Source: a virus (Duplodnaviria; Caudoviricetes). Taken from it: a stretch of 61,895 bases of DNA. Below the pieces are notes generated by a model. The model was given only the letters and a program-made list of their open reading frames with translations. It was not told the DNA's origin and did no database searches. Below are positions 3-35,354 of the stretch, piece by piece. Within the stretch, counting starts at the first letter, position 1. The number at the start of each line of letters is the position of its first letter. The stretch lies in the IMG/VR virus record IMGVR_UViG_3300016675_000012, positions 1-61,895 of that record. One strand, 5' to 3'. A program made the translations under genes and the position numbers.

Positions 3-803
3 GTGAAGCAAGCCATCATGACTTCCCTCTATGGTTCGACTGCTACCCCGGAAGCTGTGTTCGGTGACAACATCGACCTTTTCTACGAAACCATGGAGCT
101 GATGGCTCCCGGTGCATGGGATCTGAACCAAGGGCTTCAAGACCTCTGGGAAATGTTCAAGTCCTCTGATTACGCATGGGTGCTGCCTGACAACTTCCAT
201 GCCTACATCGAAACGAAGACCTCTGAGATCGTTCCCTTCACCTTCCTGAACACGCCCTACAAACTGGTGAGAAAGATTGACGGTCGTCCTGAGTTCCACA
301 AGGGACTTGGCCCCAATCTGATTCACTCGATTGACGGCATGATCGTGAGGGAAATGTTCCGTCGTTGCAGCTACGATCCGAAGACCATCACTCGTGTCAA
401 GGATCTGCTCAATGTCGGAGCCAATGGAACCAATGGAAAATCTGGTCCCATGGTTCAGACTCTCTGGACCCACTACAAGGAGACCGGGTTCCTCAGCACC
501 CGGATCTTTGACTACCTGTTCCATGACACCATTGGGCTGGTTGATCAGGCTACCATCAAAGCTCTGATCGACACTTTTCCTGCTCAGCCCTTTGACATGG
601 TGTCGGTCCATGACTGCTTCAGGTGCCATCCGAACTATGGCAATGACCTTCGTCGTCAGTATCAGCACATCCTTGCTGATCTGAATGACTCTCACCTTCT
701 GTCCAACCTGTGTTCCCAGATCGCAGGCAAGAAAGTGAAGACCAAGAAGGTCGGTAATCTGACTCGTCAGACCATCATGGAGTCCAACTATTGCCTCGCA
801 TGA
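3..803 (+). CDS. N4-type RNA polymerase II subunit 2 (gp16-like), C-terminal part; 5' end outside window
   Basis: T7-like RNAP motifs KQAIMTSLYG (motif B tail), PNLIHSIDG and SVHDCF (motif C); N4 synteny upstream of the AAA/VWA pair. Confidence 0.9.
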   Translation: MKQAIMTSLYGSTATPEAVFGDNIDLFYETMELMAPGAWDLNQGLQDLWEMFKSSDYAWVLPDNFHAYIETKTSEIVPFTFLNTPYKLVRKIDGRPEFHKGLGPNLIHSIDGMIVREMFRRCSYDPKTITRVKDLLNVGANGTNGKSGPMVQTLWTHYKETGFLSTRIFDYLFHDTIGLVDQATIKALIDTFPAQPFDMVSVHDCFRCHPNYGNDLRRQYQHILADLNDSHLLSNLCSQIAGKKVKTKKVGNLTRQTIMESNYCLA

Positions 804-8378: not shown

Positions 8379-8999
8379 ATGACCCAGAGCTTTACACAAG
8401 TTCCGCCTGACAGCACAGGCGACAAGCTCGACATGAGATCCCGCGTCAAAGGCGCGGATACTCTTTTGGAACAAGGTGTCTACCTTCCCGGTGCGCCCTC
8501 ATTCAGAGTCTTTGCTGACAGCATTGTTCCAGCTTCGAACAAGTATCACATTGCTGTCTTCAACCAGTCTGCTTCGGCACAGACCCTCTATATCACGGGT
8601 CTTTACTGCCTCAACCTGAACATCACCGCTGTTACTGGTGTCATCAACCGTTTCGACTTCCGTCGATTCACAGGTGCCCCGACACTGACTGCATTGACTC
8701 CGATGGCTTTCAACTCTGCTGACCCAGCTCTGACAGGTGTCACAGCAGGCCACACCATTACTGCTGGTGTGACTGATGGTGTGATTTTCCAGTCTCTGCT
8801 GATGTCGTCAGAAGAGCAGACAGCCGTGCCTACAAACACTCAGATGATGCTGGAACGTCTGAACCTGCTTCAGCCTTCTAACCCAAATCAGCGTCCTTTT
8901 GCGCTGAGACCGGGAGAAGGCTGCACTGTGAAACAAAACGGCACAGGCACAGTTGGTGCCCTGACATGGATCATCGACTTTGCGGTGGAGCCTGACTGA
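8379..8999 (+). CDS. putative virion structural protein
   Basis: GGAGG RBS; N-terminal QVPPDSTG motif; beta-rich; inside the fibre cassette. Confidence 0.6.
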   Translation: MTQSFTQVPPDSTGDKLDMRSRVKGADTLLEQGVYLPGAPSFRVFADSIVPASNKYHIAVFNQSASAQTLYITGLYCLNLNITAVTGVINRFDFRRFTGAPTLTALTPMAFNSADPALTGVTAGHTITAGVTDGVIFQSLLMSSEEQTAVPTNTQMMLERLNLLQPSNPNQRPFALRPGEGCTVKQNGTGTVGALTWIIDFAVEPD

Positions 9000-9373
9000 T
9001 GCCTCTTGGTTCTTGGTTCTCTTTCCACTGGTATCCGGGCCAAATGGCTGCTGTGGGACAAGCAACTCCCACAGCCAGTCTCTCTATGAACAGCCTTAAC
9101 AGAATGAGTTCTGTTGATGTTTCTGTTCCAAGCTCGGATGTCACGGCAAGAGTTACCAAGACAATGAGTCTACAAGACACGACTCAACCTTCAGGTTCTC
9201 TTTCAATGAGAAGCCTCAACAACATGAGTCTCACCAACAAAATTGGTGAACTCACTGCTGACGATGTGACAGGAGCTGTTCTTACAGCTCAAATCGCACC
9301 GGGATTGACTCTCAAAGATGCTCTTCTTGACGCAAGAAAGAATGCAAAACTGGCAGCCGCTCTCAGTGCATAA
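8999..9373 (+). CDS. hypothetical protein (fibre cassette)
   Basis: TGATG coupling; internal repeat SLSM(N/R)SLN(R/N)MS. Confidence 0.6.
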   Translation: MPLGSWFSFHWYPGQMAAVGQATPTASLSMNSLNRMSSVDVSVPSSDVTARVTKTMSLQDTTQPSGSLSMRSLNNMSLTNKIGELTADDVTGAVLTAQIAPGLTLKDALLDARKNAKLAAALSA

Positions 9374-9384
9374 TAGGATAGGCC

Positions 9385-11433
9385 ATGCTGGAACCAGTCA
9401 ACAGACAGCTTTCTCTTCTTGTTGGAGTGAAACCCGGAACTTCCGGGTTTGGTTCTGTTGGTGAACAAGGCCCAGCCGGACCTATGGGGCCTCAAGGACC
9501 GCAAGGGCCTATGGGACCACAGGGACCAGTTGGACCTCAAGGACCGGCTGGAACAAACGGCACAAATGGAACAAATGGGATCAATGGTGCCCCCGGTGTA
9601 AACGGTGCCCAAGGCCCTGTTGGACCCGCTGGTCCTGCTGGACAGACAACCCGTATCTCCAACTCCATAGTGACGCTTGGAGTAGGGTCAAAGACCTTTG
9701 CCTATACAGAGACAGCCTCCAACATTGGATGGGCTGTAGGAACCCGTCTAAGGGCTTTCCTTGAAGCTGGTCGCTACATGGAAGGTCTGGTGACTGAGGT
9801 TTCATCTACTTCAGTCACTTTCTTGTCTGATTACTTCACTGGTTCAGGCAATGGTTCTGCTTGGTTCATCGGAATCATCGGTGATCGTGGAACCAATGGA
9901 GCAAACGGAACCAATGGGGCAGATGGGCTGAAAGGAGACAAAGGAGACACTGGTCCTCAAGGTCCAGTTGGTCCTGCTGGTGCTACAGGTGCAAAAGGAG
10001 ATCAAGGTGATCCCGGTCCTGAAGGTCCAATGGGACCAGAAGGCCCTGCTGGAACTGTTGACCCAGTTCTTCTTGATGCCAAAGAAAACAAGGCTGAAAA
10101 AGGTGCCCCTGATGGATATGCCAGTCTGAACTCAGCAGGAAAAGTTCCTGCATCTCAGCTCCCTTCAACTGGCGATGTGATCGAATACACAGATATGACC
10201 TTCTTCCCTGCAACAGGTGAAGTAGGAACGATCTACATCGCTCTGGACACAGATACCTCATACATCTGGGACGATGACGCTTCAGTCTACACTCCCCAGA
10301 CTACTGTGGGGTCTCTGCCTTCAAACGTTGGATTCAAAGTCCCTTGCCGTCTGGTCGCAACCAGCAATATCGACATCGCTACAGGCGGTTTCATGACCAT
10401 CGACGGTAAGATGGTGGCCAACAAGTATCGAGTCCTCCTGACAGCTCAGACCAATCCTGCTGAAAACGGGATCTATGTTGCTGCTGCTGGACCATGGGTC
10501 AGAGCCAATGATGCCAATGTGATTGCAGAGTGTAGAGCTGCTCTCGTGTCTGTCTGGCAGGGAACGACCTATGGTGGCTCTCTCTGGTTTACTACGATGG
10601 ATCAGAACGATGTTCTGGGAACCACTCCCATGAACTGGTTCAGAGTCACTCATACAGGCAACATTGTTGCTCTGATTGATGATCTCTTGGGCAGTAACAT
10701 GTGGAGATCAGAAGGTGCTGATGGTCGCACAATCCTTAATGGAACCTCTGCTCCTACTACAGAAGGCGAAGATGGAGACTTCTATCTTCGCACTTCTACA
10801 TCCATGCTCTACGGTCCCAAGACTGCTGGTTCTTGGCCTGCTGGTGTGTCTCTGATTGGTGCCCAAGGTCCACAAGGGATCCAAGGTGAAGTTGGTCCAA
10901 CAGGGGCTACAGGAGCCACTGGTGCAACCGGACCTGCTGGTGCAAACGGAGCTACTTGGACCTCAGGCTCAGGTGTTCCTACTGGTGGATCTGATGGAGA
11001 TTTTTACCTCAGAGAGGCAAACTCTGATGTCTACAAGAAAATTTCTGGAACTTGGACTGTAATTGGGAACATCAAAGGTCTTACTGGAGATACAGGACCG
11101 GCTGGGGCAAATGGAACGAATGGTCTAAATTTCCCTGCTAAGAGTATCAACTCTCAAGCAGGAACATCATATACCCTTCAGAATAGTGATTTTGCTGGAA
11201 ACGTTGTTCTCAGAATGAGCAATGGTTCAGCTATCACTCTTACAGTGAATACTGGTCTTACTGGAGTAGAACCTATTCATATTATTCAATATGGTGCAGG
11301 ACAGATCACTCTGGCAGGAACAGCAACCATTCGCTTTGCAACAGGACTGAAAAGCAGAACACAGTATTCTGCCTTCTCTCTAATTCCAATCGGGACTGAT
11401 GAGTATCTTGCAGTTGGAGACATGACAACATGA
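9385..11433 (+). CDS. multi-module collagen-like tail fibre
   Basis: Four Gly-X-Y stretches; [22 protein letters not shown] fibre motif; [16 protein letters not shown] module; two GxDGDFYLR repeats. Confidence 0.85.
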
Positions 11434-12887
11434 GCCTTTCAAATCTTCTGGGAACAGTTGCAGCCTCAGTTGTTCTCTCTTCTGCTGACCCTGTGGTTCC
11501 TTTTTCTAATGTAACAAGTGTAGTGAATCTTCTTCCTTTTTTGGATGAAAGTTCACTAGGTTCTACCTTTGAACATTTTGATCCTCCTTTCTGGAGCAGA
11601 ACTGAAGGAAAATTTGGTGGAGCAATGAAAGGCCGCATTTCTGCGGACTCTTCTGGATATATTTCTGATCCCACAATCTCAAACCTTGGAAATAGTGATT
11701 TCACTATTGAATGCTGGATCAAAGCTTCTGTTGAACCAAATTCTGGAACTTTGATGGGTCGCTGGGGCACAACCGGAAATCGTTGCTGGTATATCAGCTA
11801 TGATGCTTCTGGTAATAGATTCAGATTCATTGCATCTCTTGATGGTTCTGCCAGCACAGTAGCCATCAATTATGACTTTGATATTGAAAGCATCAATCTT
11901 GCTACAGCATTTGACGGAAATCCCCATCATCTTGCTGTATCTCGTTCAGGTGGAAACATTTATATCCACTTTGATGGTGATCTTGCATCGGGGTCAGCAA
12001 GCTCATACACCATCAATTCAAACTCTATTTGGACGACATCCACTTTTAACTTCTTTGTGGGAGCCTATACAGTTTCTTCTGCTACACCAACAAATGGTTG
12101 GCAGGAGTTTATGGATGAGGTTCGGATTACCACAGGAACTGCTAGATATTCACAAGCAGACTTCACACCACCATCTACTAAATTTGGTAGAAATTCCACG
12201 GATGATCCTAACTTCAGCAATGTAAAACTCTTGTTGGGATTCGATTCTCCTTCAGGTTTTGCAATTGGTGGAAGTGGCACAAATACACCAAACCTTGTTG
12301 CAAACGGTCAAGCGTATGTCGGTCTTACCTCTTTGGGGTTTGGTCGTCGTGCATCTGTGACTTCACCATACTTCTCTGCTGAATCTGGCTATCTCTTTGA
12401 CTCCGGTGATTTCACCGTAGAAGTCTTTGGAGCAAATGAGACTACAGGATGGTCTTCTGGACAAATTCTTGGAGTTCGTAGATCAGGCTCTTCAGGTGAA
12501 TTGTCTTGGGCTATTGTTTACACCAGCACAGGAACAAAATTCCAATTCATCTACTCTATAGATGGATCTTCTGAGGTTGCTGTCGATTTTACAGGAATTA
12601 TTCCAGCAACAAATACATCATATGACCTTGCTGTTTCCAGAAAAGGAAGCACTCTTAGTCTGTATGTGAATGGTGTTCGTGTAAATACACACACAATTGG
12701 CTCTAATGCCTTGTATGCTGCTACAGTAACACCCCTTGGAGTTTGCTGTGGTATGAACTCTAGCATTTCTTCAGCAAGCACCATGAACACTTCTTTCAGA
12801 TTGAAAGCCTTTAGGATTACTAAAGGGGCTTATCGTTACAATTTGGACTCATACACTGTCCCAACGCTACCTCTTGCCATGGAATGA
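11430..12887 (+). CDS. LamG/concanavalin A-like lectin protein (putative receptor-binding protein)
   Basis: Two LamG-like repeats (DFTIECWIK...HHLAVSR...[13 protein letters not shown]; DFTVEVF...LAVSRKG...[10 protein letters not shown]); visibly AT-richer DNA. Confidence 0.8.
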
Positions 12888-12939
12888 TCTTAGATTTACT
12901 TGATCAAACCAAACAAACTCACCAAAGAAGGATCTCTTG

Positions 12940-14076
12940 ATGCCTATGACATCTAAGCAGTCAGAGGCTCTACGCCTTTGGCGTGAGAACAAAGAGAACA
13001 TGACAAAAACAGCAAAGCAGCTTGGTCTTGCAAGGTCATCTCTTCAGGAACTCATCAAAAAAGCTTTGAAATGGGAGGCTGCTGAAGACTCTCCGGGTCA
13101 AGTTGCAGCTCTTGAGACCACAGGTCTTGACGTTGGAATTGCTCGTCATGGATGGAGAATCGTTGTCGATCCTGTGACTGGTTCAAGAGACTCAGTGTTC
13201 TGGGTCTCAGAGAATCCAGAGATCCCACCAGAAAGCTTTACCCACAGACTCAAGGAAGCTCTGAAAGACATCGACAAACTGAAGCCTATTCCCAAACCTG
13301 CTCAGTGTGACGAAGAGCTGTGCAACTTCATTCCTCTGGCAGATCTCCATATCGGTGGTCAGTATGGAGATCCTGAGTATCTGAAAGAAATTGAGAGATG
13401 CACTTACAAGCTCATGGGAAGCCTTCCCAAGGCCAAGAAGGCAGTCATCCTTGAACTGGGTGATCTACTCGATGCCAATGACCACAAGGGCCTCACACCA
13501 GCCTCTGGCAACGCCTGTGACGTGATTAGAGAGAACGTCCTCAAGAACTCTCAGGATGCCATCCAGATCATGAGCAGGTTTATCGTATTGGCTCTCAGAA
13601 CCCATGAAGAAGTGGAAGTCCATCTTCTCCGTGGAAACCATGATGAGACAGCTTACATCGCTGTCATGCTTACTCTCCAAGCCTACTTCAAAGACAACAA
13701 GAGAGTGAAGATCATCGTCACTGATGATGACTTCAGAGTGATCCCATGGGGCCTGTGTGCTGTCTTCCCGAACCATGGAGACAAAGCCAAGTGGGAAGAT
13801 CTCAAAGGAGTGTTTGCAGACCAGTTCCCTGATGCTTGGGCCAAGGCCAAGTATTGGAGGTTCATCTGGACTGCTCACTTCCACCATGATCGACAGAGAG
13901 ACATCATGGGAGTCTTTGCTGAACACTTCAGAACACTCTCTGCCCCCAACAAGTGGGCTAAGCAAAAAGCCCTCTTCTCAAGAGGAGGGATTCAAGCTGT
14001 AACTCTTCACAAGACTGATGGTGAAATAAATCGCACCAAAGTCAATCTGAAGCCCTTGCTTTTGCAAGACACCTGA
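12940..14076 (+). CDS. calcineurin-like metallophosphoesterase with N-terminal HTH
   Basis: ADLH, GDLLD, GNHD, NHGD and AHFHH motifs; N-terminal TAKQLGLARSSL helix-turn-helix. Confidence 0.8.
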   Translation: MPMTSKQSEALRLWRENKENMTKTAKQLGLARSSLQELIKKALKWEAAEDSPGQVAALETTGLDVGIARHGWRIVVDPVTGSRDSVFWVSENPEIPPESFTHRLKEALKDIDKLKPIPKPAQCDEELCNFIPLADLHIGGQYGDPEYLKEIERCTYKLMGSLPKAKKAVILELGDLLDANDHKGLTPASGNACDVIRENVLKNSQDAIQIMSRFIVLALRTHEEVEVHLLRGNHDETAYIAVMLTLQAYFKDNKRVKIIVTDDDFRVIPWGLCAVFPNHGDKAKWEDLKGVFADQFPDAWAKAKYWRFIWTAHFHHDRQRDIMGVFAEHFRTLSAPNKWAKQKALFSRGGIQAVTLHKTDGEINRTKVNLKPLLLQDT

Positions 14077-14132
14077 TCCATCTTTGTCTCACAGGGATCG
14101 TGGAGAGATTCACCGAAGATCTGTTGGTGTAT

Positions 14133-14166
14133 GAAGCCGAGGAGAGATCCTCGGCTTCTTCTTTTT
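14133..14166 (+). terminator. Rho-independent terminator
   Basis: GAAGCCGAGGA-GAGA-TCCTCGGCTTC perfect stem followed by TTCTTTTT. Confidence 0.85.
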
Positions 14167-14203
14167 GGTTCGCTTCGAACCCATCAACAATGGAGAATCT
14201 CAA

Positions 14204-14386
14204 ATGGCCGATAAGAGCGGCAAGACCCGGAAGAAATCCCTTGGCTCCGTCCGGGCAAAAGCTGGTATGCCTGCCAAGGCTGGGCGTCGTCGTCCGCCCC
14301 ATCTGAAGAGCGTTCGTGATCGCAACGGTCATCGTGACTGGGTGACGGTCTCCCACGCTGAACCGAAATCGCAGAAGAAGGAATGA
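14204..14386 (+). CDS. small highly basic protein (60 aa)
   Basis: GGAG RBS before ATG 14204; K/R-rich. Confidence 0.6.
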   Translation: MADKSGKTRKKSLGSVRAKAGMPAKAGRRRPPHLKSVRDRNGHRDWVTVSHAEPKSQKKE

Positions 14387-14396
14387 TTCCTGCTGA

Positions 14397-14495
14397 CACA
14401 CCTATCCGTAGGACGGACCCAGCCATGAATGCCTGATAGACTGCCACAGCAGCCTTGAAAGGAGCTAGAGATAAGCTGGCTACGGATAGACTGTG
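14397..14495 (+). ncRNA. putative structured RNA (multibranch stem-loop)
   Basis: CTATCCGTAG (14402-11) pairs with CTACGGATAG (14480-89); inner CCAGC/GCTGG and CTGC-CACA-GCAG hairpin. Confidence 0.4.
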
Positions 14496-14496
14496 G

Positions 14497-14542
14497 AAAG
14501 GAGACTAAGGGAGTAGTGACCCCTTGGTCTCCTTTTCTTTTT
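14497..14542 (+). terminator. Rho-independent terminator
   Basis: AAAGGAGACTAAGGG / CCCTTGGTCTCCTTT stem followed by TCTTTTT. Confidence 0.8.
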
Positions 14543-14546
14543 CGAA

Positions 14547-14669
14547 CTGGAAGTCGTCTAGGGAACGGGGAAACCCAAAGTCAGGACACTCAGACAGGGG
14601 AAATTATCTCGTCTAACATAGGACACCCCGACTTGGGAAACACAGGTGCGAACCCTGTCTTCCGGTCCA
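14547..14669 (+). ncRNA. tRNA-like RNA without an anticodon, with duplicated D-arm core and encoded CCA
   Basis: Acceptor stem CTGGAAG/CTTCCGG plus T-CCA; T-arm ACAGG-TGCGAAC-CCTGT; two TCGTCTA...AGGACA D-arm motifs. Confidence 0.7.
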
Positions 14670-14696
14670 TTCAACCGTGAACCAAGGAACAACGCA

Positions 14697-17258
14697 ATGG
14701 AAGTGATGAACGGCACTGAGCTGGTTCAGACTGAAGTGCTGGTCGGCCAAAAGTCTGTAACCCGGAGCTTTGGGGTTTCTGATGACCCCATGCTCATGTC
14801 GATGCTCTCGACTGGCTTCTATCAGAAGCCTCTTCGCACTATGATTCAGGAAGTCATGTTCAATGCTTGGGATGCTCACCGTATGGGCAACTGCCAAGAT
14901 CGTCCCATCGACATCTACCTGAATGAGACCACTGGTCTGATCATCCGGGACTATGGTCCGGGGATTGATCCCGGTGAGAACGACGACAACATGCACGAGA
15001 TCTACTGCATGTATGGTGGCTCGACCAAACGGAAGATGAAGAACCAGACTGGTGGCTTCGGTCTTGGGAGCAAGTCTCCTTTTGCCTACACCGAATCCTT
15101 CACTGTCACCTCCCACTATGGTGGCACCAAGAACATGTATCTCATCTCCCGAGTCTCTGAAGCCAATGGAGGCAAGCCGGGAATGACATGTCTAGTTCGT
15201 GTTCCTACGACTGAGACGGGTCTTCTGGTGACGATTCCCCTGAAGAAAGGGGACATGCTCAAAGCCTATGAACACATCAAGGACGTTCTATTCCTGAGTG
15301 GCATCAAGGCAATGATCCACTACGAAGACGAGAAAGACGAGTTCATCGACTCTGACTCTCTGACTGTCGGTCAATACTTGATTGATGAGAACCATCGTCA
15401 GGGACGAATCTGGGCAGTCTACGGTGGAGTTCGTTATGAGATCCCCATGTTCGAGGAGTATGAAGACGAATACGACTTCATGAAGCTCATCTCGAAGGGA
15501 TACGATCTCTTCGTTGGCTTCGCTCCTGACACTCTCAGTCCTCTCCCCAACCGGGAAGGTCTGAACATGGGAGAGAAGTCCAAAGAGACTGTGAAAACAG
15601 TCTTCGAGATGTGTTCAGAACGGTTCAACGTTCTCATCGAACCGATGCTGAATCTGTTCTTTGAAGACTACTTCAAGATCTGCAAAGACCATCACAAGCT
15701 CCAGCCGGAGTTCACCTTCATTGATTTGGGCAAACTTGGTCTGTCTCAGAATTTCCAGACAATCATCTCTGCTCGATCCATGAAAGACCGTCTTCTCAAG
15801 ATGCGGTTTGATGGAGTAGAAGAAGACCTCTGGAACATCATGGCGACTCTGCTCACCAGCAATCTTGGCGACATTCGTCGTCACATCAAGATGGAACGCT
15901 GGAGGACTCTGATCTTCAAGAACTTCCTGAAGGTCTATCCTGAAGGAAAACACATCGTTTTCGCTGCGATGAAAAAACCGATCAAGGATGTCTTCAACGT
16001 CCACTCCCATGATGCCAGCCTGACTTTCGTCTCTGAATACCTTCGTCACAGCTTCTTACTGGATCAGATGAAGTTCATTCGTGAGATGAAGAAGGAGTTC
16101 CCCGCTGATGTCAGTCTACATCCTACGATGCGTCTGATGATCAGAGATGATTGGATTGCTCCTATCTGGGACCGTGGTTTTGCCAACACCAGAAAGACCA
16201 AATACGGAGTCCGTGGAGGCATTGATTCCAAAGATCCTCGTCTGGCTCGTTCTCCCAAAGGACTCTCTACTCTGAATCTCTGGGCACCCAGAAACAGTGA
16301 CGAGCTTTCCTTCACCATGATGACTAAGACAGTCATTCTGGCGAAGACAGCCACTGCTCTGAAAGACACTGTGGTTCCTGCAAGAATTCACACTCACAGC
16401 CAGATGATACAAGGACTCCATTACTACTACGATGGTGTGAGCTGTGCTGCTCCTGCCTACGTCGTTCACGAAAGGAAAGGTGCATACCAGAAAGCCAAAG
16501 AGATTCTGGAGTCCATGGGCTTCACTGTCTACGAAGGCGCTGAACCAGTGAAGGCTAAATCAAGACCCAAAGTGAAGACGCTTCCGACCTACAGTCTGAT
16601 TTGTCCCCAGAATGCTGAGACTTGGTGCAGCACCAATCCCAATGACCAGATTCCTGATCCGACTCACTTCTTCTATGTCACCCAGTATACGTTGAAGGGA
16701 TACAGCTCTGGTGAGCGTCCTGACAGGGAATTGGTCTACTGGTTCATGAAGAAGAACCCCAAGTTCGTTACGGTGAATCACCAACGAAGTGCGGACACTC
16801 TGATCAAGATGGGAGCAATTCCCTTCTACGATGACATCATCAAGTGGTATGACACCCTGTCGGTGAATATCGACCGCATGATGAACATCATTCGTGCTGC
16901 TCGAATCAAGGAATGGACCCCATTCCCTGAAGAGATGCTTCGCCATCCCCTGATCCAATTGGAGCTGGGTATGGAGCCTGTCGATGAGGCAGATGAAGAC
17001 TTCTGGTATGAATCCAGAGGTGTGAATCTCCTCATGAATACCGAGTTTTATCCTCTGAAGACCCTGAAGAGAAAACTCAACATAGATCTGGAACAGCTCT
17101 GGAGGCAAGACAAAGAGTCCTCCAACATTCGTCACATGACGGGTGTCTCGAAGGTCTTCAACGCCTTTACGATCTCTTCTCTTTGGTCTGACACTGATAA
17201 GGCAGGCAAAGATCGGCTTGTGGATTCAGTCATCACCACTCTGAAACTCTTCTCCTGA
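14697..17258 (+). CDS. rIIA: RIIA-like protein
   Basis: N-terminal GHKL ATPase motifs (EVMFNAWDA, RDYGPGI, GGFGLGSKSPFAY); followed by rIIB; RBS AAGGA before ATG 14697. Confidence 0.9.
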   Translation: MEVMNGTELVQTEVLVGQKSVTRSFGVSDDPMLMSMLSTGFYQKPLRTMIQEVMFNAWDAHRMGNCQDRPIDIYLNETTGLIIRDYGPGIDPGENDDNMHEIYCMYGGSTKRKMKNQTGGFGLGSKSPFAYTESFTVTSHYGGTKNMYLISRVSEANGGKPGMTCLVRVPTTETGLLVTIPLKKGDMLKAYEHIKDVLFLSGIKAMIHYEDEKDEFIDSDSLTVGQYLIDENHRQGRIWAVYGGVRYEIPMFEEYEDEYDFMKLISKGYDLFVGFAPDTLSPLPNREGLNMGEKSKETVKTVFEMCSERFNVLIEPMLNLFFEDYFKICKDHHKLQPEFTFIDLGKLGLSQNFQTIISARSMKDRLLKMRFDGVEEDLWNIMATLLTSNLGDIRRHIKMERWRTLIFKNFLKVYPEGKHIVFAAMKKPIKDVFNVHSHDASLTFVSEYLRHSFLLDQMKFIREMKKEFPADVSLHPTMRLMIRDDWIAPIWDRGFANTRKTKYGVRGGIDSKDPRLARSPKGLSTLNLWAPRNSDELSFTMMTKTVILAKTATALKDTVVPARIHTHSQMIQGLHYYYDGVSCAAPAYVVHERKGAYQKAKEILESMGFTVYEGAEPVKAKSRPKVKTLPTYSLICPQNAETWCSTNPNDQIPDPTHFFYVTQYTLKGYSSGERPDRELVYWFMKKNPKFVTVNHQRSADTLIKMGAIPFYDDIIKWYDTLSVNIDRMMNIIRAARIKEWTPFPEEMLRHPLIQLELGMEPVDEADEDFWYESRGVNLLMNTEFYPLKTLKRKLNIDLEQLWRQDKESSNIRHMTGVSKVFNAFTISSLWSDTDKAGKDRLVDSVITTLKLFS

Positions 17259-17271
17259 GAAAGGGAAAACA

Positions 17272-18783
17272 ATGGATTCGTCCACCAAACAGGTCATCTC
17301 CATGTTGGTGTCGGGTGAGAAAATCACCCTCTTCACCATCACTGGGGAACTGATCGAAGTGAAGAACGATGGAGACTACGATACGGTGAAGATCACCGAG
17401 TATCTGACTTCTCGTCTGAGCGGAACCAACGCTGTCGAGATCAATCTGGATGAGTTCTCCAAGATTGCCAAGATTCTTCCGGCTGATCTGGAAGACCATG
17501 GGATCGAGGTCACTCAGATCATCGACGGTCGTGAAGTTCAGGGGATCTTCTATCCCCGCAAAGTCGCTGTCGCTGTCAAGGTCGATGGTGAGAAGGTCCA
17601 CATCCCGGATGTGGAAAACCTGTCTGGTCACATTCAACGGGCTGCTGCTGAAAAGAGTCCGTCTGTGGCCAACTTCCTGAAGCGTCTGGCTCCTGTTCTG
17701 AAAAGCCGGAAGCACTCGGGAGAAGATCTAATGAAGTTCATCAAGCTGTCTGAGATGCCTCTGACGAATGATGGCCGAATCATCGCCTACAAGCGTGTGA
17801 ACAAGGCTGATGACCCCTACTTCAAGGATTGCCATACGGGCAAAGTGAAGCAGCGGGTCGGTTCTCGTGTCGTCATGAAGGTGAATCTGGTTGACTCCAG
17901 CCGTCACAACTCGTGTTCGACTGGTCTCCATGTGGCCAATCTCGGTTACATGAAAAACTTCAGTGGTGCCCATACCCTGATCGTGCTGGTGAACCCTGAA
18001 GACTTCATCGCTGTTCCTGTGGGCGAAGACACCAAAGCTCGTGTCTGTGCCTATGAGATCATCGGAACCATGAGCAACAGTGCCCATGACAAGGTGAACA
18101 CTGGCTCCCACGTCTCGGGTGACATCACCCTTCAGCAGCTCATCAAAAACGCTGTGGAAGGCAACCATATCCGTCCCTTCGAAGAAATCGAAGTAGGCAA
18201 ATATGGTGAGATCGTCCGAGTGAGTCCGTTGGAAGGTGGTGGCAAGCCCACAACCCCTGTGAAGCCTGTTGCCACTTCGTCTGGCAAGTCTCTGGCTGAT
18301 GATCCGAATCCGGGGACTCAGAACAAGGATGTGGTCAAGACTACTAAGGAAGTCCAAGGGAAACCGACGACTCTTCCTGAAGAAGTCAGCCAAGCCTTCC
18401 AGATGATCCGTGATGGCATCAGCAAGTCTGAAATCGCTCGTCGTCTTGTGACTTCGACCCGTTCCATTGGTCGCTGGATCGAGAAGTATGGTGATCCTTT
18501 CTCTCTGGTTTCGCCTCCGAATGAGGAACCGAAGCCTGAACCCAAAGAGGAGGCTCCCGTGAAGAGTGATGATGATTTCGCCAAGATGGTTCAGTCGAGT
18601 GAACCGCCGAAGCCTGCCACCAAGGCAGAGCAGATGCGGAAGCTCTACAACAACTGGATCCTTGGCGGAAAGAAGCCTGAAGATCTGAAAGCTGTGAAGC
18701 TGTTCAAGTCGTCGGCCAAGAAGAGCTATTCGGCTCTTGGCCTGACTGCTGCTGAAGAGCAGAAGATTCAGGATGCCGAATGA
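17272..18783 (+). CDS. rIIB: RIIB-like protein
   Basis: DGRIIAYK, CSTGLHVA, VNPEDFIAVP and KARVCAY motifs; HTH in C-terminal part. Confidence 0.9.
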   Translation: MDSSTKQVISMLVSGEKITLFTITGELIEVKNDGDYDTVKITEYLTSRLSGTNAVEINLDEFSKIAKILPADLEDHGIEVTQIIDGREVQGIFYPRKVAVAVKVDGEKVHIPDVENLSGHIQRAAAEKSPSVANFLKRLAPVLKSRKHSGEDLMKFIKLSEMPLTNDGRIIAYKRVNKADDPYFKDCHTGKVKQRVGSRVVMKVNLVDSSRHNSCSTGLHVANLGYMKNFSGAHTLIVLVNPEDFIAVPVGEDTKARVCAYEIIGTMSNSAHDKVNTGSHVSGDITLQQLIKNAVEGNHIRPFEEIEVGKYGEIVRVSPLEGGGKPTTPVKPVATSSGKSLADDPNPGTQNKDVVKTTKEVQGKPTTLPEEVSQAFQMIRDGISKSEIARRLVTSTRSIGRWIEKYGDPFSLVSPPNEEPKPEPKEEAPVKSDDDFAKMVQSSEPPKPATKAEQMRKLYNNWILGGKKPEDLKAVKLFKSSAKKSYSALGLTAAEEQKIQDAE

Positions 18784-35222: not shown

Positions 35223-35266
35223 AGGGAGAGCATTTGATTTGTTCGATGCTCTCCCTTTTTCTTTTT
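35223..35266 (+). terminator. Rho-independent terminator
   Basis: AGGGAGAGCAT / ATGCTCTCCCT stem followed by TTTTCTTTTT. Confidence 0.8.
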
Positions 35267-35354
35267 GGTGTGGTGGAAATGGTAGACACGGCGCTTGTAG
35301 GGACGCCAAAACCTGAACGTGCTGGCATTGTGGGTTCGACTCCCACCACCAGTT
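35264..35354 (+). tRNA. atypical tRNA or tRNA-like RNA (Leu-type D arm, non-canonical anticodon arm, no CCA)
   Basis: D-arm TGGTGGAAATGGTAGACAC; perfect T-arm GTGGG-TTCGACT-CCCAC; acceptor TTGGTG/CACCAG. Confidence 0.65.

What the first reader, a model, noticed from the sequence alone, without database searches (positions are those of the whole stretch)
14547..14669. Anticodon-less tRNA mimic with encoded CCA and a second, nested D-arm core, upstream of rIIA
Seen: a 123-nt element parsing as acceptor CTGGAAG(14547-53)/CTTCCGG(14659-65)+T+CCA; TC; D-stem GTCT/GGAC whose loop carries an extra GGG-GAAA-CCC hairpin; anticodon-position stem CTCAG/TTGGG; variable loop AAAC; T-arm ACAGG-TGCGAAC-CCTGT. 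A 39-nt insert replaces the 7-nt anticodon loop: GGGG/CCCC closing a second TC-GTCT-A...A-GGAC-A D-arm preceded by AAAT. This gives two tRNA cores joined through their anticodon stems, or a tandem duplication of D-arm plus mini-arm. Established: TCGTCTA...AGGACA is the Glu-type tRNA D-arm, and many antiphage systems (PrrC, PARIS AriB, retron PtuAB, some TA toxins) attack tRNAs. Inference: a stable non-decoding tRNA mimic, acting as a decoy for tRNA-targeting or tRNA-sensing defences, a synthetase/EF-Tu/RelA ligand, or an RNase P-processed leader of the rIIAB mRNA. Intact acceptor, T-arm and CCA argue against random decay.
Basis: partly seen in the sequence, partly recalled or inferred. Interest (0 to 1): 0.8.

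Follow-up and report, generated by a model that had tools for sequence, protein, structure and literature searches.

The report
Anticodon-less double-core phage tRNA mimic
A freshwater N4-like phage carries a conserved gene for a tRNA-shaped RNA that has no anticodon but a second, nested tRNA-arm module; it belongs to an undescribed family of phage tRNA look-alikes whose job is still unknown.

Summary
ARAGORN and Rfam do not call it. Three further copies were found (L003, L080, L072). RNAalifold on the four predicts the same helices unprompted, and 8 of 29 pairs keep pairing through changes on both sides.

It is wider than the finding. Related phages carry about 105-nt tRNA-like genes with the same D stem, a D-loop hairpin and degenerate anticodon arms, in their tRNA clusters. 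Two viral contigs (L012, L021) carry a circularly permuted version with the acceptor capped by a loop.

The encoded CCA is not conserved, and no expression data exist.

Best reading: a stable, non-decoding, tRNA-Glu/Gln-derived shape mimic that acts in trans on a tRNA-binding protein. The RNA gene is well supported; the function is inferred. New variant of a known kind (tRNA-like ncRNAs such as YrlA).

The parts
14500..14542 (+). Intrinsic terminator just upstream: 12-pair hairpin GGAGACTAAGGG / CCCTTGGTCTCC with a 9-nt loop, then TTTTCTTTTT
   Evidence: Read. The weak Rfam hairpin matches (FinP, mir) lie here and not on the element. The simple scanner missed it because its loop limit is 8. 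Kept in run X3, which lacks 14388-14496.
14547..14669 (+). The whole tRNA-like element (123 nt)
   Evidence: CM R1 scores 146 bits and has no second copy in the window. ARAGORN, only with introns allowed and the threshold lowered, returns exactly these ends. Homologues: L003 1314-1474, L080 592-714 (-), L072 259-360 (-).
14547..14553 (+). Acceptor stem 5' strand CTGGAAG, pairs with 14659-14665 CTTCCGG
   Evidence: 4 of 7 pairs change on both sides among 4 sequences; 7 of 7 among 11 family members, with 97.4% of cells paired.
14556..14587 (+). Outer D arm: GTCT / GGAC around a 24-nt D loop with the GGG-GAAA-CCC hairpin (14567-14576)
   Evidence: The stem is invariant or changes on one side only. 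The loop hairpin varies in length: 3 pairs here, a long hairpin in L003, none in L072. Family members carry a two-tier hairpin at the same place.
14589..14593 (+). Outer 'anticodon-position' stem 5' strand CTCAG, pairs with 14633-14637 TTGGG
   Evidence: U44.G90 becomes U-A in L003 and in contigs of runs X4 and X8 (14636 G>A). L072 forms GCG(A)CG/UGCGU at this place in a constrained fold. Predicted by RNAalifold.
14594..14632 (+). 39-nt insert in place of the anticodon loop: ACA, GGGG (14597-600), linker AAATTATCTC, hairpin GTCT-AACATA-GGAC (14611-24), A, CCCC (14626-29), GAC
   Evidence: Stems are identical in all 4 copies, so there is no covariation. Predicted by RNAalifold. The same strings GGGGAAAT ... 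TCGTCTAA ... GGACACCCCGAC occur in the permuted L012/L021, where a T arm sits where TATC is here.
14638..14658 (+). Variable loop AAAC and T arm ACAGG-TGCGAAC-CCTGT
   Evidence: 3 of 5 T-stem pairs change on both sides. The T loop is TTCGAAT in L003 and L072. G at position 55 is shared with family members (TGCAAAT).
14666..14669 (+). Discriminator T and CCA
   Evidence: Kept in L003. CTA in L080, where the CCA belongs to a second tRNA-like element about 125 nt further on. AAT in L072.
14697..17258 (+). rIIA-like gene (Shine-Dalgarno AAGGAA at 14684-89), followed by the rIIB-like gene 17272-18783
   Evidence: Matches RIIA/RIIB of N4-like roseophages. Weak HATPase_c match. Translation from 14697 starts MEVMNGTE.

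Best explanation
The element is a gene for a stable, non-decoding, tRNA-shaped RNA derived from a tRNA-Glu/Gln-type ancestor.

Shown:
- It has a conserved, covarying acceptor stem, T arm and outer stem, with a complete set of tRNA elbow nucleotides.
- There is no anticodon loop. In its place sits a conserved helix that ends in a second D-arm-like hairpin.
- It belongs to a wider family of expanded tRNA-like genes in phage tRNA clusters.
- It has circularly permuted relatives with a closed acceptor.

Inferred:
- It is co-transcribed with rIIA/rIIB, downstream of the terminator at 14500-14542.
- It is cut out by the host's tRNA-maturation enzymes: RNase P at the 5' end, endo- and exonucleases at the 3' end, with CCA repair where needed.
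- It then works in trans by shape. It occupies a host (or phage) protein that recognises the tRNA elbow, D arm and anticodon stem of Glu/Gln-type tRNAs, such as a tRNA-directed defence or quality-control factor. It cannot be used in translation and, lacking the loop, cannot be cleaved there.
- Because permuted relatives cap the acceptor with a loop, the active surface is the core and the double-arm end, not a chargeable 3' end.
For: Structure: RNAalifold reproduces the fold unprompted. 8 of 29 pairs covary, 0 of 500 shuffles reach that, and slid controls are far lower. In the 11-member family the acceptor covaries at 7 of 7 pairs and the T arm at 3 of 5, with 97.7% of 176 cells paired.

Selection: the 3' 86 nt are 80 of 86 identical between window and L003. 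That compares with 762 of 895 in rIIA, 95 of 124 upstream (plus 52 gap columns) and 19 of 25 in the spacer. The changes seen are compensatory, in loops, or G.U to A-U.

Not coding: L003 is 38 nt longer, so no frame is kept.

Not tied to rIIA: L072 has the same architecture next to unrelated small ORFs. Family members sit in tRNA clusters.

Shape over ends: L012/L021 hold the same modules in circularly permuted order with a hairpin-closed acceptor. RNAalifold predicts that fold, with 2 compensatory pairs. The window-to-L021 alignment scores 68.5 in permuted order and 62.0 in linear order, against 23.6 +/- 5.9 (maximum 45) for shuffles.

Non-decoding: no ARAGORN call at default settings and no Rfam tRNA match even at E<=10.

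Distribution: contigs of 4 of 4 laid runs from 4 studies cover the element.
Against: There are no RNA data of any kind, so processing, stability and trans action are inference.

The single-sequence fold is not the MFE. The antisense strand scores nearly as well on the mirrored structure (-30.2 against -32.5).

The most unusual part, the inner GGGG/CCCC stem and hairpin, never varies in the 4 copies. It therefore has no covariation support.

The window type is rare: only 1 other IMG/VR contig and 2 metagenome contigs. Only 1 of 5 rIIA relatives has it.

No partner protein is known. The phage records searched encode no Ro60 (G000 only), no CCA-adding enzyme and no RtcB.

The CCA is not conserved. 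In three related phages the element always sits in the rIIA leader, which also fits a cis role.
Confidence: 0.5

Rival explanations
1. It is a cis-acting 5' leader of the rIIA/rIIB mRNA. A tRNA-like fold at the start of the transcript would be cut by RNase P, or would simply protect the 5' end. It would thereby set the stability or the processing of the rIIAB message rather than act in trans.
For: In window, L003 and L080 it lies between a terminator and the rIIA ribosome-binding site, 27 nt before the ATG. The leaders of relatives L006 and L007 are also long, about 100 nt. tRNA-mRNA co-transcripts processed by RNase P and RNase E are established in bacteria (recalled).
Against: L072 has the same architecture in an unrelated context. 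Family members lie in tRNA clusters, not in leaders. DSS3phi2 and 4 of 5 rIIA relatives do without it. L080 holds two different tRNA-like elements in tandem at the site, as a tRNA-gene landing site would. L006 and L007 leaders share no convincing structure.
Confidence: 0.17
2. It is a decaying remnant of duplicated tRNA-Glu/Gln genes, a pseudogene without a function of its own. It would persist because it is young or because its acceptor-T minihelix still serves as a processing signal.
For: The two halves read like a tRNA-Glu anticodon arm broken in the loop: TCAG-ACA-GGGG-AAAT and GGACACCCCGACTT, against TCGTCTAACGGTTAGGACACCCCGACTTTCAGTCGGGGCGAT in L095/L104/L106/L107 (by eye). Pipelines label odd phage tRNAs 'tRNA-OTHER', pseudo (phiCB2047-B). 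The window type is rare.
Against: There are compensatory changes in three helices. It is more conserved than its flanks. The same odd architecture is kept in the distant L072 and, permuted, in L012/L021. Where the inner T arm is absent (window type) the inner D loop lacks GG; where it is present (L012/L021) GG is there.
Confidence: 0.12
3. It is a Y-RNA-like partner of a host Ro60/Rsr protein: a YrlA analogue supplied by the phage to redirect the host Rsr/PNPase RNA-decay machine.
For: The permuted relative L012 gives a weak YrlA match (29.8 bits, positions 30-81 of 114: T arm, closed acceptor, D arm). YrlA RNAs are tRNA mimics found in bacteria and in 22 phages. M. smegmatis YrlA is cut by RNase P and gets CCA (PMC4201824, passages read).
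Against: There is no YrlA match on the window even at E<=10. L012's score is far below the gathering score of 69. There is no GNCGAAN0-1G motif in 14300-14800. There is no TROVE gene in the phage record, which is 84% complete. YrlA's near-invariant D arm is GCUC/GAGC, not GUCU/GGAC. The host is unknown.
Confidence: 0.08
4. It is a real decoding tRNA whose 39-nt insert and D-loop hairpin are removed as introns.
For: With introns allowed and the threshold lowered, ARAGORN calls the exact ends. One family member (L266 1844-1964, -) has a normal 7-nt loop UUUUAAG with anticodon UUA (by eye).
Against: Removing GGGG...CCCC leaves a 6-nt loop ACAGAC without U33. Bacterial tRNA introns are group I introns of over 200 nt (recalled). 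The insert is the best conserved part. ARAGORN's relaxed calls disagree on the anticodon between copies: Pro in window and L080, Glu in L003, Ile in L072.
Confidence: 0.03
5. It is a DNA-level element, such as an attachment site, an origin or a cruciform, rather than an RNA.
For: The mirrored structure on the antisense strand is almost as stable (-30.2 against -32.5 kcal/mol).
Against: 5 of 32 pairs are G.U, which become A.C on the other strand. One of them is replaced by U-A in relatives. T-loop and elbow nucleotides are tRNA-specific and strand-specific. It lies in the sense of all neighbouring genes.
Confidence: 0.02

Closest known systems
YrlA, bacterial and phage Y RNA-like tRNA mimics (Rfam RF02553; Chen et al. 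2014, PMC4201824)
   Same: A non-decoding RNA with tRNA-like T arm, D arm and acceptor and no anticodon loop. The anticodon-stem position leads into another module. The permuted relatives L012/L021 have YrlA's order (T arm, closed acceptor, D arm) and a weak model match. One YrlA is an RNase P and CCA-enzyme substrate.
   Different: The window element is not permuted and has open ends. It has no Ro60-binding motif, no Ro60 gene nearby, a different D arm and no model match. Its second module is another tRNA arm, not a Ro-binding stem.
Phage T4 RNAC and RNAD (species 1 and 2 stable RNAs of the tRNA cluster)
   Same: Phage-encoded stable small RNAs beside tRNA genes, with functions still unknown (PMC9697503, passage read). 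Their tRNA-like ends and RNase P processing are recalled, not checked here.
   Different: T4 is unrelated to this N4-like phage.
Canonical phage tRNAs that evade tRNA-targeting defences (PMC10264068, PMC11555353; abstracts in a search listing only)
   Same: Phage-borne tRNA-shaped RNAs thought to act in the conflict with tRNA-cleaving host systems.
   Different: Those are decoding tRNAs that replace cleaved host tRNAs. This RNA has no anticodon and cannot replace anything.
tmRNA tRNA-like domain
   Same: Acceptor plus T arm with a reduced or absent anticodon arm.
   Different: No tag reading frame and no pseudoknots. No ARAGORN or Rfam tmRNA call at normal thresholds. One relaxed 'tmRNAp' call on L080 has an atypical tag.
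'tRNA-OTHER' pseudo-tRNAs annotated in N4-like roseophage tRNA clusters (Sulfitobacter phage phiCB2047-B, NC_020862.2)
   Same: Odd tRNA-like genes in the tRNA cluster of a cultured relative, flagged as pseudo by the annotators.
   Different: The phiCB2047-B sequence read has no GTCT/GGAC D arm and no nested module. R1 matches only its tRNA-Gln.
Circularly permuted tRNA genes of the red alga Cyanidioschyzon merolae (recalled)
   Same: The 3' half lies before the 5' half, with the acceptor strands joined.
   Different: Those mature into normal decoding tRNAs through a circular intermediate. L012's acceptor hairpin is only 4 pairs and no anticodon loop could be restored.

Membership tests
Canonical tRNA (Rfam RF00005) | 7-pair acceptor, D arm, T arm with T54/C56/A58, elbow nucleotides | tested here: met
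   Position 55 is G in the window and U in L003 and L072.
Canonical tRNA (Rfam RF00005) | 5-pair anticodon stem closing a 7-nt loop with U33 and an anticodon | tested here: not met
   A 39-nt structured insert takes the place of the loop and is conserved in 4 of 4 copies.
Canonical tRNA (Rfam RF00005) | Detected by ARAGORN at default settings or by the Rfam model at its gathering score | tested here: not met
   no match, even at E<=10.
tmRNA | tRNA-like domain plus tag-peptide frame and pseudoknots, detected by ARAGORN or Rfam | tested here: not met
YrlA (RF02553) | Match to the covariance model at the gathering score of 69 bits | tested here: not met
   No match on the window. The permuted relative L012 scores 29.8 bits.
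YrlA (RF02553) | GNCGAAN0-1G motif near the 5' end (PMC4201824) | tested here: not met
   0 matches on either strand in 14300-14800.
YrlA (RF02553) | Encoded within about 4 kb of a Ro60/TROVE gene on the same strand (PMC4201824) | tested here: not met
   No TROVE match in the 61.9-kb record, which is 84% complete.
YrlA (RF02553) | Permuted order: T arm, closed acceptor hairpin, D arm | tested here: not met
   The window has open acceptor ends. The feature is met only by relatives L012 and L021.
Expanded tRNA-like genes of phage tRNA clusters (family defined here) | Covarying 7-pair acceptor and T arm; UC-GUCU...GGAY D stem | tested here: met
   11 sequences, 97.7% of 176 cells paired, acceptor covaries at 7 of 7 pairs.
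Expanded tRNA-like genes of phage tRNA clusters (family defined here) | Extra hairpin inside the D loop | tested here: met
   Present in window, L080, L003 and 7 cluster members; absent in L072.
Expanded tRNA-like genes of phage tRNA clusters (family defined here) | Non-canonical element at the anticodon position | tested here: met
   Tetraloops, loops of 6, 8-10 and 16 nt, or the nested module. One member has a normal UUA loop (by eye).
T4 RNAC/RNAD | Sequence or structure likeness to the T4 RNAs | not tested
Only a passage of PMC9697503 was read.

The most novel reading that the evidence does not exclude
Phages carry a so far unnamed class of modular, 'double-core' tRNA-shaped RNAs. Two tRNA-like modules are joined through their anticodon stems. 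The class exists both in linear form (open acceptor: window, L003, L080, L072) and in circularly permuted form (capped acceptor: L012, L021). It sits within a larger family of expanded, anticodon-less tRNA look-alikes in phage tRNA clusters. These RNAs would act by shape as uncleavable competitive ligands for tRNA-binding immunity or RNA-surveillance proteins. The fast-changing anticodon-end module would be the part under arms-race selection.
Probability: 0.3. Interest if true: 0.85.

Novelty: new variant of a known kind. Interest (0 to 1): 0.66.

Why it matters
Phage tRNA genes are now seen as weapons against tRNA-cleaving defences, but attention has gone to decoding tRNAs. This element shows a conserved, covarying tRNA-shaped RNA that cannot decode. 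It has a nested second module, natural circular permutants and a wider family that standard tRNA finders and Rfam miss.

If it acts as a shape decoy or a Y-RNA-like adaptor, it would add a new kind of RNA counter-measure. It would also give a handle for finding the tRNA-binding host factor it targets.

Practically, it marks a class of genes that annotation pipelines leave blank or label 'tRNA-OTHER, pseudo'.

Tried and rejected
Single-sequence thermodynamics: not informative (z -0.71). The D-loop inserts folded alone give z from +0.5 to -1.8.

Alternative fold ('Model 2'): D stem 14556-59 paired with the second GGAC (14621-24), plus a mini anticodon hairpin CCC-CGACTT-GGG. MAFFT suggested it by aligning the second GGAC with the family's D stem. 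It also resembles the hairpin CCCCGACAAGGG of 39 marine phage contigs. Rejected for the window type: L003 and the X4/X8 variants change the middle G to A, and L072 has no GGG. RNAalifold also picks the nested fold.

Cultured-phage search: blastn of 14380-14720 and of the G003 cluster against 50,697 phage records found nothing.

Promoter idea: TTTT(0-4)GANCTG follows the terminator in several relatives. It is not enriched in the window: 6 matches against 4.8 expected. No sigma-70-like site in 14000-15000.

Leader structure in L006/L007: no convincing consensus.

Phage-encoded tRNA enzymes: no PolyA_pol/CCA enzyme and no RtcB in G000, G001, G003; no TROVE in G000.

Neighbours of the permuted form: only a weak DUF932 match and PHROGs of unknown function.

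Expression: no RNA holder listed for the stretch. The runs labelled RNA-Seq are 'probably DNA' and are kept as contigs, so their depth says nothing about expression.

Rotation test: the permuted order scores only slightly better than the linear one (68.5 against 62.0), and other rotations score as high, so that test alone is not decisive. The case for permutation rests.

Literature: searches listed no paper on such an element. 'N4-like' with 'tRNA-like' gave 0 papers. The library lacks most subscription journals, and supplements are closed. The supplementary tables of PMC4201824, which list the phage YrlA loci, could bear on the L012/L021 relatives and were not seen.

Full report
CONTEXT. The window is an IMG/VR virus record of 61,895 bases, 84% complete. 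Its rIIA/rIIB region matches N4-like roseophages (Schitoviridae) at 68-76% identity. The finding lies between a strong intrinsic terminator (stem 14500-14511 / 14521-14532, then TTTTCTTTTT) and the rIIA-like gene (Shine-Dalgarno 14684-89, ATG 14697).

THE OBSERVATION. The outer core carries U8, A14, G15/C48, a GG in the D loop, T54, C56 and A58. ARAGORN at default settings finds no gene there. Rfam finds nothing at gathering scores in the whole window. At E<=10 its three weak matches all lie on the terminator hairpin. Thermodynamics alone does not single the fold out. The MFE of -37.5 kcal/mol is another structure, with z -0.71. The proposed fold scores -32.5. Once the acceptor and T arm are imposed, the best fold is the proposed one (-33.4).

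HOMOLOGUES AND COVARIATION.
- Of 5 IMG/VR loci that encode rIIA relatives, only L003 (89% identity) has the element.
- A metagenome scan for the inner D arm gave 35 stretches, two of them of the window type. L080 is near-identical to the window. L072 is distant and lies in an unrelated gene context.
- Between window and L003 the acceptor changes at two adjacent pairs, both compensated. The T loop becomes the canonical TTCGAAT. U44.G90 becomes U-A. The D-loop hairpin is replaced by a much longer one.
- L072 changes 3 T-stem pairs and 4 acceptor pairs with pairing kept. In a constrained fold it forms GCG(A)CG/UGCGU and UGGGG/CCCCG at the two central stems.
- On my 29 pairs, 96.5% of 115 cells pair and 8 pairs change on both sides. 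0 of 500 shuffles reach this, and slid controls pair at most 67.8%.
- The inner GGGG/CCCC stem, the inner hairpin and the outer D stem are invariant, so they are conserved but untested by covariation.
- The 3' 86 nt are 93% identical between window and L003. This compares with 85% in rIIA, 77% upstream and 76% in the spacer.
- L003 is 38 nt longer, so no reading frame is preserved.
- Contigs of four laid runs from four studies cover the element. Their listed variants are 14636 G>A, four T-loop changes and one C inserted in the inner loop, as in L003. None of the listed differences of X2 (8 of 11 listed) or X3 (8 of 10 listed) falls in the element.

A WIDER FAMILY. A covariance model of the four copies (R1) finds no second copy in the window. 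In the complete genome of another rIIA relative (G003) it hits a tRNA cluster.
- Between tRNA-Pro and tRNA-Gln lie three genes of about 103-120 nt that ARAGORN does not call.
- Their acceptors are CTGAAAG and CTAGAAG (window: CTGGAAG). They share the UC-GUCU D stem, a two-tier hairpin inside the D loop, and T loops TGNAAAT with G at position 55, as in the window.
- Their anticodon positions differ: a tetraloop hairpin, an 8-10-nt loop and, in one case, a normal UUUUAAG loop (read by eye).
- A pattern scan added L272, L276, L277, L281 and L274 from other viral contigs, again beside ordinary tRNAs.
- Across 11 members the acceptor covaries at 7 of 7 pairs and the T arm at 3 of 5. The D stem changes on one side only. 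97.7% of 176 cells pair.
- The D-loop hairpins differ in sequence but keep their architecture.

The window element is therefore the most elaborate member of a family of expanded, mostly anticodon-less tRNA-like genes.

PERMUTED RELATIVES. Two viral contigs (L012, which is the same contig as L091, and L021) carry the strings GGGGAAAT, TCGTCTAA, GGACACCCCGAC, GGAAAC and a near-identical T stem (CAGG/CCTG). Their order is:
- GGGG, AAAT, T arm 1, UC, D arm 1, A, CCCC, GAC;
- then AAGG, AAAC, T arm 2, a hairpin-closed acceptor, UC, D arm 2, G, CCTT and a T run.

This is the window's connectivity opened at the internal loop and closed at the acceptor, with a T arm where the window has TATC. RNAalifold predicts exactly this two-core fold, with two compensatory pairs in T arm 1. 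The window-to-L021 alignment scores 62.0-68.5 against 23.6 +/- 5.9 for shuffles. L012 gives a weak YrlA match over T arm, closed acceptor and D arm: 29.8 bits against a gathering score of 69. Where T arm 1 is present, the inner D loop has GG. Where it is absent (window type), GG is absent. This fits a lost elbow contact.

ORIGIN. The D arm is the Glu/Gln type. It occurs in ARAGORN-called tRNA-Gln genes. It also occurs in tRNA-Glu(UUC)-like pieces reading TCGTCTAACGGTTAGGACACCCCGACTTTCAGTCGGGGCGAT (by eye). The window's TCAG-ACA-GGGG-AAAT and GGACACCCCGACTT read like the 3' and 5' halves of such an anticodon arm broken in the loop. The GGGG/CCCC stem would then be an anticodon stem formed between two tRNA copies. 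It does not imply decay.

THE CCA. It is kept in L003. L080's copy ends CTA, and the CCA there belongs to a second, different tRNA-like element inserted about 125 nt further on. L072 ends AAT. Of the 10 family tails I read, 3 are CCA. L006, a leader without the element, has CCATTTCCGTG at the same spot. The phage records encode no CCA-adding enzyme.

FUNCTION (inference). The gene reading is well supported; the mechanism is not shown. I favour a stable RNA cut from the rIIA co-transcript by host tRNA-processing enzymes, acting in trans by shape on a tRNA-binding protein (0.5). Three points favour it: the architecture is independent of the rIIA context; relatives lie among tRNA genes; and permuted forms show that a free 3' end is dispensable. 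Rivals are a cis-acting rIIA leader (0.17), a pseudogene (0.12), a Y-RNA-like partner of host Ro60 (0.08), a spliced decoding tRNA (0.03) and a DNA-level site (0.02).

COMPARISON WITH WHAT IS KNOWN. The element works most like YrlA-type tRNA mimics, but it fails all four YrlA membership features tested. T4 RNAC and RNAD are the nearest phage precedent, and their function is still called unknown. It matches no Rfam family. My six literature searches listed no description of it.

VERDICT. It is a new variant of a known kind. Interest 0.66.

Noticed in passing
window 35264-35354 (+): A second odd tRNA-like gene. ARAGORN calls it 'tRNA-???' with a 4-letter anticodon gtag. The Rfam tRNA model gives 26 bits, below its cut-off of 29, with a defective anticodon arm and a long variable region. 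It is flanked by hairpin-plus-T-run sites, and the loop contains GTA (Tyr-like).
   Followed up: partly
L080 about 470-590 (- strand): Directly 3' of its copy of the element, L080 has a second, unrelated anticodon-less tRNA-like element. It has acceptor GAGAAGC/TCTTCTT, then A and CCA, two T-arm-like hairpins, two further hairpins and no D arm. The window looks like L080 minus these roughly 125 nt (by eye; the relaxed ARAGORN call is).
   Followed up: partly
L266 1844-1964 (- strand; genome G003): A family member with a large D-loop insert but a canonical 7-nt anticodon loop UUUUAAG (anticodon UUA, which would read the stop codon UAA). ARAGORN does not call it.
   Followed up: no
L226-L264 (39 viral contigs): A tRNA-like gene of about 72 nt with GGACACCCCGA(C/T)AAGGGAG at the anticodon position. 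ARAGORN calls it 'tRNA-???' with a 2-letter anticodon in 4 of the 6 loci tested. It lies in tRNA clusters. L253 also carries a cyano-type tmRNA and a manA RNA.
   Followed up: partly
L013 about 8910-9010, L016 about 1850-1930, L102 1159-1233 (-), L087 about 130-300: Single or tandem circularly permuted tRNA-like modules inside phage tRNA arrays. Their order is GGGG, AAAT, T arm, short closed acceptor hairpin, UC-GUCU...GGAC, A, CCCC. Neither ARAGORN nor Rfam YrlA calls them (read by eye).
   Followed up: partly
L276 7709-7748, L277 7115-7155, L272 825-868 (-): The hairpin inserted in the D loop of family members is flanked by a short direct repeat, (G)ATAGG(A), as an insertion with a target duplication would be. 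Alternatively, it may allow two alternative D-stem pairings.
   Followed up: no
window 14437-14445 and 14485-14493: GATAGACTG occurs twice in the non-coding stretch before the terminator and is kept in L080. The stretch 14388-14496 is absent from the X3 contig and is replaced by 410 other letters in X8.
   Followed up: no
L095, L104, L106, L107: Repeated 5' two-thirds of a tRNA-Glu(UUC)-like gene. Each diverges after the variable loop and is followed by an ORF (Saganbacteria and other MAG contigs). They look like tRNA-targeted insertion junctions.
   Followed up: no
window 9385-12887: Two large ORFs upstream carry collagen triple-helix repeats and a concanavalin-A-like lectin (Laminin_G_3) domain, probably fibre or host-recognition proteins. 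They are followed by a calcineurin-like phosphoesterase at 12937-14076.
   Followed up: no
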